Positions 13,315 to 14,194 of a stretch of DNA of 64,000 nt are shown in pieces. The position numbers and the translations under genes are program-made. The notes beneath the pieces are model-generated. The model was not told the DNA's origin. It saw nothing but the letters and a program-made list of their open reading frames with translations, and searched no databases. Position 1 is the first letter of the stretch; each line of letters begins with the position of its first letter. This DNA comes from Escherichia phage vB_EcoM_G10400: the sequence record MK327937.1, one strand, 5' to 3'.

Positions 13315-13995
13315 TTATTTTAATGTTACGAAAGAAGAATTACGTGTTTCACGAATTAGAACTGATCCGTCACGATTAATGTAGTAAATTAAGCTAAATA
13401 AAGTTTGGTGTGCCGACGCATGTTCAAAACTAGTTGGGTGAGATTTCCAATCTGGGGTTTCAGCAATCCATTGATAAATCCACCAAGGAACAGTGCAGAA
13501 TCCTGGATTTTTTCCAATCAGCTGAAGATTCGGACTAAAGTTTTCCGGAAGAGTAAATACAGACGGCTTTTCGGATTCAATAATCTCAGCTACAGCCTGT
13601 TCGAATTTTTCTTCAACAAAAGGAGTATCTTCAATTAAAACAGTGGTATTTTCAGGAATTTTATCCGTTTCTACTACTTCAATTTTAATGTCAGATTTAA
13701 CCGGAGAATCAATCAGAAGTGCTGCCTCTGGATTGACTTCTTCATCGTCATATTTTAATCCGTCTGCGGCATCAGCAGCATCAATTAAGTCTTTAATAGA
13801 TAACCCATCAGTCTCTGGCATAGGTTCACTAGCGAGCTTCTGGAGAGCTTCTTCAATATCATTAACGATATTATCAAAAGATTTATTCTTTTTGACCTTT
13901 ATACCAAACTGTTCAGCATATTCAGCTAATTTAGCTTTAGCTTCTTTATTATCATCAAGAGCCTTCAGCTCTGCAATATAATCTTTATCTATCAT
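13315..13995 (-). CDS. inh: Inhibitor of prohead protease
   Basis: 226-aa ORF, size and position match T4 inh. Confidence 0.85.
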   Translation of the reverse strand: MIDKDYIAELKALDDNKEAKAKLAEYAEQFGIKVKKNKSFDNIVNDIEEALQKLASEPMPETDGLSIKDLIDAADAADGLKYDDEEVNPEAALLIDSPVKSDIKIEVVETDKIPENTTVLIEDTPFVEEKFEQAVAEIIESEKPSVFTLPENFSPNLQLIGKNPGFCTVPWWIYQWIAETPDWKSHPTSFEHASAHQTLFSLIYYINRDGSVLIRETRNSSFVTLK

Positions 13996-14017
13996 AATAT
14001 TTCCTCAGTATAAATAT
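13963..14017. repeat. 55-bp exact direct repeat, copy 1 (probable assembler k-mer overlap)
   Basis: Identical to 14140-14194; directly abuts the adapter sequence. Confidence 0.9.
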
Positions 14018-14139
14018 CTGTCTCTTATACACATCTCCGAGCCCACGAGACCGTACTAGATCTCGTATGCCGTCTTCTGCTTGAAAAAAAAAAAAAAAAT
14101 AAAAAAAAAAAAAAAAAAAAAAAAAAAAAAAAAAAAAAA
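14018..14139. other. Sequencing artifact: Illumina Nextera adapter read-through with 8-nt index, plus poly-A run
   Basis: CTGTCTCTTATACACATCT (14018-14036), CCGAGCCCACGAGAC, index CGTACTAG (14052-14059), ATCTCGTATGCCGTCTTCTGCTTG (to 14083), then 55 A with one T (14084-14139). Confidence 0.95.
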
Positions 14140-14194
14140 CTTCAGCTCTGCAATATAATCTTTATCTATCATAATATTTCCTCAGTATAAATAT
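14140..14194. repeat. 55-bp exact direct repeat, copy 2 (probably the authentic copy)
   Basis: Identical to 13963-14017; continues into authentic segD upstream region. Confidence 0.9.
14186..14193 (+). promoter_or_regulatory. Late promoter TATAAATA upstream of segD (also present in duplicated copy at 14009-14016)
   Basis: Exact octamer 28 nt upstream of segD ATG. Confidence 0.45.

What the first reader, a model, noticed from the sequence alone, without database searches (positions are those of the whole stretch)
13963..14194. Untrimmed Illumina Nextera adapter plus poly-A embedded between inh and segD, flanked by an exact 55-bp duplication
Positions 14018-14083 are a complete Nextera read-through adapter: CTGTCTCTTATACACATCT, CCGAGCCCACGAGAC, an 8-nt index CGTACTAG (matches what I recall as Nextera i7 index N702), then ATCTCGTATGCCGTCTTCTGCTTG. 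A 56-nt run of A with a single T follows (14084-14139), typical of reading past the end of a library fragment. The 55 bp before the adapter (13963-14017) is repeated exactly after the poly-A (14140-14194). An overlap of exactly 55 bp is what a de Bruijn assembler with k=55 leaves at contig ends, so this looks like a contig end joined to its start without trimming. It is not phage biology. It inserts 177 bp of non-genomic sequence 23 bp upstream of the inh start codon and duplicates the TATAAATA motif upstream of segD.
Basis: partly seen in the sequence, partly recalled or inferred. Interest (0 to 1): 0.85.

Follow-up and report, generated by a model that had tools for sequence, protein, structure and literature searches.

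The report
Leftover sequencing adapter, not phage DNA
A 177-base stretch between the phage genes inh and segE is a leftover Illumina library adapter, a poly-A read-off tail and a duplicated assembler overlap, so it is an assembly artefact to delete rather than a biological feature.

Summary
Bases 13963-14017 equal 14140-14194 (55 nt, 100%). Bases 14018-14083 are a complete 66-nt Nextera i7-side read-through adapter with index CGTACTAG (N702). Bases 14084-14139 are 55 A plus one T.

All 158 related T4-like genomes that cover the region lack the block; the 40 best listed each span exactly 177 nt less than the window. After deletion the window is identical to its two closest relatives across the junction, and the inh-segE spacer returns to T4's 49 nt. 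The same 66-mer occurs in 44 unrelated phage records, mostly at record ends. In six fetched records it differs only in the index.

Three sibling T4-like records (G4507, G4500, KAW1E185) carry the identical layout (55 + 66 + 56 + 55) at three other genome positions. Their paper reports Nextera libraries, MiSeq, SPAdes with a "55kmer" setting, and rearrangement of T4-like contigs. It does not mention Illumina adapter trimming. A toy k=55 de Bruijn graph reproduces 231 of the 232 observed bases.

Two corrections apply. The right-hand gene is segE, not segD. Only 122 of the 177 nt are non-genomic; the other 55 are a duplicated genomic copy.

There is no biological novelty. The value is data hygiene, because RefSeq copies of the siblings carry the same scar.

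The parts
13315..13995 (-). inh (inhibitor of the prohead protease). The gene is intact and its start codon lies inside repeat copy 1.
   Evidence: The 226-aa ORF is 98% identical to T4 Inh.
13963..14017 (.). Copy 1 of the 55-nt exact repeat. This is real genome sequence: the first 33 nt of inh, its ribosome-binding region and a TATAAATA motif. In the model it is the branching k-mer at which the assembly graph left the genome for the adapter.
   Evidence: It is present once in the relatives. It is the node with out-degree 2 in the toy graph.
14018..14036 (+). Tn5 mosaic-end sequence (reverse complement of AGATGTGTATAAGAGACAG). This is the start of the adapter read-through.
   Evidence: It is part of the published trimming string.
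14037..14051 (+). Nextera i7-side sequencing-primer portion, CCGAGCCCACGAGAC.
14052..14059 (+). The 8-nt sample index CGTACTAG (Nextera N702).
   Evidence: N702 = CGTACTAG in PMC5570097, Table 4. This is the only part of the 66-mer that differs among six other phage records.
14060..14083 (+). Reverse complement of the P7 flow-cell oligo, ATCTCGTATGCCGTCTTCTGCTTG.
   Evidence: That this is P7 is my own knowledge of Illumina adapter design.
14084..14139 (+). A 56-nt A-rich tail (T at 14100). These are base calls made after the template has ended. The length is k+1 for k=55.
   Evidence: The tail is exactly 56 nt in three sibling records. The toy graph gives 55 A from the unitig plus 1 from the poly-A self-loop.
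14140..14194 (.). Copy 2 of the 55-nt repeat, the start of the original contig. Deleting 14018-14194, or equivalently 13963-14139, restores the genome.
14056..14172 (-). Spurious 38-aa ORF (MIDKDYIAELKFFFF...KQKTAYEI) created by the duplicated inh start running into poly-T and the adapter.
14222..14839 (+). segE (GIY-YIG homing endonuclease). The gene is intact.
   Evidence: It is 99% identical to T4 SegE over 205 of 205 aa, against 46% over 95 aa to T4 SegD. T4 gene order is hoc-inh-segE-uvsW.

Best explanation
This is an assembly and curation artefact, not phage DNA. The proposed sequence of events has five steps.

1. A Nextera (Tn5) library of a T4-like phage was sequenced on a four-colour Illumina instrument.

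2. The reads were assembled without adapter trimming in a de Bruijn graph with k=55. The circular or circularly permuted genome forms a cycle. The last 55 nt of one short insert (13963-14017) becomes a branching node with two exits: the genome and the adapter.

3. The cycle is therefore cut at that node, giving an edge that starts and ends with the same 55-mer. The adapter edge runs until it reaches the all-A 55-mer node, and one pass round that node's self-loop makes 56 A.

4. The output contig is 55-mer ... genome ... 55-mer + 66 adapter + 56 tail, which is the genome plus 177 nt.

5. Because T4-like genomes have no fixed ends, the contig was then rotated to a conventional start by pasting its end onto its start without trimming. 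That buried the scar inside the record.

What is shown: the anatomy, the absence of the block from all covering relatives, the synthetic identity of the string, the same layout in three sibling records whose documented pipeline matches, and the graph logic. What is inferred: that this window went through that same kind of pipeline, and that the stray T at 14100 comes from post-assembly base correction or read noise.
For: Anatomy. Chance expectations are 1e-36 and 1e-22.

Relatives: 158 Tequatrovirus records cover at least 80% of 13400-14800 and all lack the block; the 40 best listed each span 1,224 nt against the 1,401-nt query, 177 nt less. After collapse, the window is identical to G4507 and PYPS2T over the junction. 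The inh-segE spacer is 226 nt here and 49 nt in T4, and 226 - 177 = 49.

Synthetic identity: the 66-mer is found in 44 phage records from unrelated hosts. By position, 32 of them have it within about 120 nt of a record end. Six fetched records match it exactly outside the 8-nt index. The adapter string and N702 are documented.

Sibling records: G4507, G4500 and KAW1E185 have a 55-nt repeat + 66 + exactly 56 + the 55-nt repeat at three different loci. [quoted passage not shown] The only adapters mentioned are PacBio SMRTbell adapters. The window is 98.0% identical to G4507 over 24.8 kb.

Toy graph: a k=55 graph of a circle plus one read-through read yields three unitigs (circle + 55, 55-mer + adapter + A55, and an A56 loop). 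Concatenated and rotated, they equal 13963-14194 at 231 of 232 bases.
Against: The source record was not found in the phage collection, in viral contigs, or by exact-protein lookup, so the assembler and curation steps for this particular sequence are not documented.

I chose the order in which the toy unitigs were walked. SPAdes itself was not run.

The T at 14100 is not predicted by the pure graph model. The same is true of the non-A stretches in the G4507 and G4500 tails, which still total exactly 56 nt. Base substitution by the mismatch corrector of the 'careful' option would explain a constant length with variable content, but that is untested.

No reads were available.
Confidence: 0.96

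Rival explanations
1. It is an artefact, but not a k=55 circle closure. For example, two separate contigs or scaffolds could have been merged through a 55-nt overlap by a merging tool. Alternatively, an overlap assembler could have extended through a chimeric or untrimmed read, with the 55 nt being incidental.
For: The source pipeline is undocumented for this window. Other records show other geometries, such as a 259-nt repeat with a 29-nt tail in Pseudomonas phage SaPL, and no repeat in Bacillus phage Tomato. Adapter scars therefore arise in more than one way.
Against: The repeat is exactly 55 nt and the tail exactly 56 nt (k and k+1). The identical numbers appear in three sibling records assembled with a stated 55-mer SPAdes run. 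The flanks are collinear with relatives, which is expected for a circle closure and not for a join of distinct contigs. The toy graph gives these numbers without any tuning.
Confidence: 0.035
2. It is a genuine insertion in the phage genome: a Tn5/IS50-type transposition or other mobile DNA with a target duplication, or a real tandem duplication with filler DNA.
For: The first 19 nt derive from the Tn5 end sequence, and the block is flanked by a direct repeat, which superficially resembles a target-site duplication.
Against: Only one mosaic end is present in the window. My own knowledge of Tn5 is that it carries two inverted ends, a transposase gene and a 9-bp target duplication; none of these is seen here, and the repeat is 55 nt. 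The rest of the block is a flow-cell oligo and a commercial sample index. It is absent from all 158 relatives that cover the locus. The same string is found in unrelated phages of Bacillus, Listeria, Pseudomonas and Streptococcus, mostly at record ends.
Confidence: 0.003
3. The 55-nt duplication reflects the physical terminal redundancy of the packaged T4-like chromosome, and the adapter marks a true DNA end.
For: T4-like virions do carry terminally redundant DNA, and an adapter next to a repeat could suggest a real molecular end.
Against: This argument rests on established knowledge of T4 headful packaging rather than on a test run here. Packaging gives kilobase-scale redundancy at permuted, non-unique ends, not a fixed 55-nt repeat. 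Tn5 libraries place adapters at internal cut sites. Sibling phages show the same 55-nt figure at unrelated loci: inside gene 5, between rnh and gene 34, and inside another ORF. That tracks the assembler's k, not the biology.
Confidence: 0.002

Closest known systems
Illumina Nextera (Tn5 tagmentation) i7-side adapter read-through with a poly-A read-off tail
   Same: All four segments are present in the correct order and orientation 3' of the insert. The 34-mer equals the published read-1 trimming string. The index equals N702. The A-rich tail fits four-colour chemistry, which is my own knowledge.
   Different: Nothing differs in sequence. What is unusual is only its place: inside a finished genome record rather than in a raw read.
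k-mer overlap left at the ends of a circular genome by a de Bruijn assembler (SPAdes, k=55)
   Same: The repeat is exact and as long as k. It sits at what was the contig's start and end. It disappears in the relatives.
   Different: The usual case is a plain k-nt terminal duplication. Here the graph left the circle through an adapter branch, so 122 nt of adapter and tail sit between the two copies. The contig was later rotated, so the scar is internal.
The same scar in deposited sibling records: vB_EcoM_G4507 (MK327946 / NC_054919), vB_EcoM_G4500 (MK327945) and vB_EcoM_KAW1E185 (MK373781 / NC_054922)
   Same: All have the identical 55 + 66 + 56 + 55 layout with a 177-nt unit. All are T4-like phages, and G4507 is the window's closest relative.
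   Different: They carry different indexes and sit at different genome positions. In G4507 the scar splits gene 5 into two CDS. In G4500 it is translated as a 59-aa in-frame insertion. Here it is intergenic and disrupts no gene.
Adapter contamination in public assemblies, the target of NCBI VecScreen and FCS-adaptor
   Same: It is synthetic library sequence embedded in a deposited genome. The problem is documented for GenBank, for example for Nanopore adapters in PMC13182109.
   Different: That paper concerns Nanopore adapters. This is an Illumina adapter with a specific, assembler-determined geometry.

Membership tests
Illumina Nextera i7-side read-through adapter | The 19-nt Tn5 mosaic end (CTGTCTCTTATACACATCT) lies directly 3' of the insert, followed by CCGAGCCCACGAGAC. 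| tested here: met
   There is an exact match at 14018-14051. It is the same 34-mer used as the cutadapt -a adapter for tagmentation libraries.
Illumina Nextera i7-side read-through adapter | An 8-nt index from the N7xx set. | tested here: met
   CGTACTAG at 14052-14059 is listed as N702 in PMC5570097, Table 4. The same index occurs in an unrelated Bacillus phage record.
Illumina Nextera i7-side read-through adapter | The reverse complement of the P7 flow-cell oligo closes the adapter, and nothing templated follows it. | tested here: met
   ATCTCGTATGCCGTCTTCTGCTTG at 14060-14083 is followed by 56 nt of A-rich junk. That this is P7 is my own knowledge.
Illumina Nextera i7-side read-through adapter | The sequence is independent of the organism: the same string occurs in unrelated genomes and varies only in the index. 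| tested here: met
   It occurs in 44 phage records from at least 10 host genera. Six fetched records match exactly outside the index.
de Bruijn (k=55) circular-contig overlap joined without trimming | The exact direct repeat has length equal to k. | tested here: met
   The repeat is 55 nt, 100% identical, and does not extend. Sibling records have the same 55 nt, and their methods state a '55kmer' setting.
de Bruijn (k=55) circular-contig overlap joined without trimming | One repeat copy plus the intervening sequence is absent from related genomes, and the flanks are collinear. | tested here: met
   All 158 covering relatives lack the block, and the 40 listed are exactly 177 nt shorter. The junction is identical after collapse. 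The window is collinear with G4507 at 100% coverage over 24.8 kb.
de Bruijn (k=55) circular-contig overlap joined without trimming | The assembly log or graph of this record shows k=55 and a contig whose ends are at 14139|14140. | not testable with these tools
   The source record and its reads were not available.
Natural Tn5/IS50 insertion | Two inverted 19-bp ends flank a transposase gene, with a 9-bp target-site duplication. | tested here: not met
   There is a single mosaic end in 64 kb. The flanking repeat is 55 nt. The insert is 122 nt with no ORF other than poly-F/poly-K junk.
T4-type terminal redundancy | A kilobase-scale repeat at the ends of the packaged DNA, tied to packaging rather than to software parameters. 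| tested here: not met
   The repeat is 55 nt. The identical length is seen at three unrelated loci in sibling phages.

The most novel reading that the evidence does not exclude
No biological novelty survives the tests. The most novel reading still open is methodological. The 177-nt block (k-mer, 66-nt adapter, k+1 tail, k-mer) may be a recurrent, pipeline-specific scar of untrimmed Nextera reads combined with SPAdes k=55 and contig rotation. It is always a multiple of three (2k + 67 = 177 for k=55), so it never shifts the reading frame and can be translated into deposited proteins. It is already present in several GenBank and RefSeq T4-like genomes. Its fixed geometry could be used to find and repair such records automatically.
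Probability: 0.85. Interest if true: 0.2.

Novelty: not a real feature. Interest (0 to 1): 0.08.

Why it matters
It matters for data quality, not for phage biology.

Left in place, the block has these effects:
- It lengthens the divergent inh-segE control region from 49 to 226 nt.
- It duplicates the inh start and the late-promoter-like TATAAATA motif.
- It creates two junk ORFs.
- It would mislead promoter, repeat, recombination or terminus analyses.

The same scar in sibling records has already damaged annotation. Gene 5 is split in G4507 and in its RefSeq copy. A 59-aa adapter/poly-Phe insertion is translated in a G4500 protein. Such sequences also seed protein databases with adapter-derived peptides.

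The practical outcome is simple. Delete 14018-14194, and flag the sibling records for correction.

Tried and rejected
Identifying the source record failed in three ways. There was no full-coverage hit in the phage collection. There was no exact match to the genome/adapter junction in viral contigs. The window's Hoc protein is not on record. The tie to the documented pipeline therefore rests on the siblings.

I considered whether the tail length could reflect read length or insert size. I rejected this because four independent records all have exactly 56 nt.

I considered a natural Tn5 insertion and T4 terminal redundancy, and rejected both on anatomy.

I checked whether the other long exact repeat in the window (25217/40477) was a second artefact. 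It is not. It is a shared intergenic element without adapter sequence.

A tRNA scan of the window found none, which is irrelevant to the finding.

Full report
**Observation.** The sequence at 13963-14194 is exactly as described.
- The repeat finder reports a single direct-repeat family in 13000-15200: 13963-14017 and 14140-14194, 55 nt, 100% identical, spacing 177. A script shows the repeat extends in neither direction.
- Between the copies lies a 66-nt string. It is made of CTGTCTCTTATACACATCT (14018-14036), CCGAGCCCACGAGAC (14037-14051), CGTACTAG (14052-14059) and ATCTCGTATGCCGTCTTCTGCTTG (14060-14083).
- This is followed by 56 nt consisting of 55 A and one T at 14100.
- The string occurs once in the window. 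No other Illumina adapter fragment is present, and the next-longest homopolymer is 7 nt.
- In 64 kb of this composition, the expected number of such 66-mers is about 1e-36. It is about 1e-22 for 55-nt exact repeats and about 3e-15 for a run of 39 A.

**Identity of the string.** The first 34 nt are the adapter that published pipelines give to cutadapt (-a) to trim read 1 of tagmentation libraries (bioRxiv 10.1101/2021.08.13.456193). CGTACTAG is listed under the name N702 alongside N701 TAAGGCGA, N703 AGGCAGAA and N704 TCCTGAGC (PMC5570097, Table 4). That the last 24 nt are the reverse complement of the P7 flow-cell oligo, and that cycles past the end of a template are called as A on four-colour instruments, is my own knowledge.

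Independent of names, the string behaves as a synthetic sequence. A megablast of the 66-mer finds it in 44 phage records. These include phages of Bacillus, Listeria, Pseudomonas, Acinetobacter, Streptococcus, Paenibacillus and Salmonella, lambda-like phages, and uncultured "Bacteriophage sp." records. By the listed positions, 32 of the 44 have it within about 120 nt of a record end. In six records that I fetched, it matches exactly everywhere except the 8-nt index. The same indexes recur in unrelated records from other countries: CGTACTAG in Bacillus phage Tomato, and CGAGGCTG in both G4507 and Pseudomonas phage SaPL.

**Context.** The window is a T4-like (Tequatrovirus) genome.
- The minus-strand ORF 13315-13995 is Inh, 98% identical to T4 Inh.
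- The plus-strand ORF 14222-14839 is SegE, 99% identical over all 205 aa. It is not SegD, which matches at 46% over the N-terminal 95 aa only and in T4 lies between genes 23 and 24.
- The order hoc-inh-segE-uvsW is that of T4.
- No gene is interrupted. The block creates only two junk ORFs: MIDKDYIAELKFFFF...KQKTAYEI on the minus strand and MKKKKKIKKK... on the plus strand.

**Absence from relatives.** Of 701 phage records that match 13400-14800, 158 cover at least 80% of it, and none contains the block. The 40 best listed each span 1,224 nt against the 1,401-nt query, a difference of exactly 177. In a direct alignment, the window minus 177 nt is identical to G4507 and PYPS2T through the junction. 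The inh-segE spacer is 226 nt here and 49 nt in T4, and 226 - 177 = 49. Downstream, the window is collinear with G4507 at 98.0% identity over 24.8 kb. It is therefore a distinct phage whose own record is not in the collection.

**Sibling records.** Three other T4-like records from one German study carry the adapter internally:
- G4507 at 76.7 kb, inside gene 5, which is annotated as two CDS on either side.
- KAW1E185 at 146.3 kb, between rnh and gene 34.
- G4500 at 124.0 kb, inside an annotated CDS.

In all three the layout is identical to the window: a 55-nt exact repeat, the 66-nt adapter with another index, exactly 56 nt of A-rich tail (pure A56 in KAW1E185), and the 55-nt repeat again. The RefSeq copies NC_054919 and NC_054922 retain it. 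Because 177 is a multiple of three, the scar never shifts the frame. In G4500 the annotated protein reads straight through it as a 59-aa insertion...YKGAWFERNINKHSHLNQ-FFFFFFFFFLLCGFLFFFFKQKTAYEMAVGLVGSEMCIRDR-YKGAWFERNINKHSHLNQ....

The paper describing these phages (Viruses 2019;11:454, PMC6563267) reports the following:
- Nextera libraries and MiSeq v3 600-cycle sequencing.
[quoted passage not shown] - The word "adapter" occurs only once in the main text, for PacBio SMRTbell adapters.

**Mechanism test.** I built a toy de Bruijn graph with 55-nt nodes. The input was error-free 301-nt reads tiling a 12-kb circle, cut from the collapsed window. To these I added one read whose insert ends at 14017 and continues into the adapter and A's.

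The graph has exactly two branching nodes, the 55-mer 13963-14017 and the all-A 55-mer. It has three unitigs: the circle plus 55 nt (starting and ending with that 55-mer), the 55-mer + adapter + A55, and an A56 self-loop. Walking them in that order gives a contig of circle length + 177. Rotating that contig without trimming gives a junction equal to window 13963-14194 at 231 of 232 positions.

The model explains three things:
- Why the duplicated 55-mer abuts the adapter: the circle is cut at the branch node.
- Why the tail is 56 nt: k A's to reach the all-A node, plus one for the loop.
- Why the scar sits at a different, arbitrary locus in each genome: it lands wherever one short insert happened to end.

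The junction 14139|14140 has no possible read support, so it must come from pasting the contig end onto the contig start.

**What remains open.** The T at 14100 is not produced by the pure graph model. Nor are the non-A stretches in the G4507 and G4500 tails, which still total exactly 56 nt. Constant length with variable content suggests base substitution after assembly, for example by the mismatch corrector of the 'careful' option voting on the few noisy reads that map there. This is inference only.

I chose the unitig walk myself, and SPAdes was not run. The window's own record could not be identified. That it went through this pipeline, or an equivalent one, is therefore inferred from its near-identity to G4507 and the identical scar geometry.

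**Rivals.**
- A natural Tn5 insertion fails. There is one end instead of two and no transposase, and the duplication is 55 nt rather than the 9 bp I know to be typical of Tn5.
- T4 terminal redundancy fails, because the 55-nt figure recurs at unrelated loci.
- A different kind of assembly artefact, such as a contig merge, cannot be excluded absolutely. However, it does not predict k and k+1.

**Verdict.** It is not a real feature of the phage. Bases 14018-14194 (or equivalently 13963-14139) should be deleted. Biological interest is minimal. The useful by-product is a recognisable, frame-preserving 177-nt scar that is also present in several deposited genomes, including RefSeq entries, and in their protein annotations.

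Noticed in passing
It is 99% identical to T4 SegE over its full length, against 46% to SegD over the GIY-YIG domain only. The synteny hoc-inh-segE-uvsW is that of T4.
   Followed up: yes
window 25204-25256 and 40464-40516: A 53-nt near-identical intergenic element (40 nt exact) sits just upstream of two minus-strand ORFs, 24905-25195 and 39952-40458. Its reverse complement reads GTTTAC-N18-TATAGT followed by GAGGA and an ATG. That looks like a shared T4-type early promoter plus ribosome-binding site. The flanks are unrelated.
   Followed up: partly
L003 (MK327946.1, G4507, record 76694-76759); also NC_054919.1: The window's closest relative carries the same 177-nt scar inside gene 5 (baseplate hub and tail lysozyme). 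The gene is consequently annotated as two separate CDS. The RefSeq copy retains the scar.
   Followed up: yes
L005 (MK327945.1, G4500, record 123962-124027): The annotated CDS G4500_00214 (QBO65890.1) is translated straight through the scar. It gains a 59-aa insertion containing poly-Phe and the adapter-derived peptide KQKTAYEMAVGLVGSEMCIRDR, plus a duplicated 18-aa segment.
   Followed up: yes
L004 (MK373781.1, KAW1E185, record 146295-146360); also NC_054922.1: The same scar, with a pure A56 tail, lies between the rnh and gene 34 annotations. Its index ACCGATCG, and G4500's CCACGGCC, are not indexes I recognise from the standard N7xx list. They may be custom or miscalled.
   Followed up: partly
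L006 (MT584805.1, Bacillus phage Tomato, 107520-107585); L007 (MH973725.1, Pseudomonas phage SaPL, 6641-6706); L008 (MZ092003.1, Paenibacillus phage Pd_22F, 28000-28065): Unrelated phage records hold internal Nextera adapters with other geometries. In Tomato the DNA polymerase is split into two CDS and there is no flanking repeat. SaPL has a 259-nt flanking duplication and a 29-nt tail. Pd_22F has the adapter followed by a long poly-G (two-colour chemistry) and then sequence from the other adapter side.
   Followed up: partly
window 14009-14016 and 14186-14193: The late-promoter-like TATAAATA upstream of segE lies inside the 55-nt repeat and so appears twice. Only one copy is real. Promoter scans of this record would count it double.
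   Followed up: no
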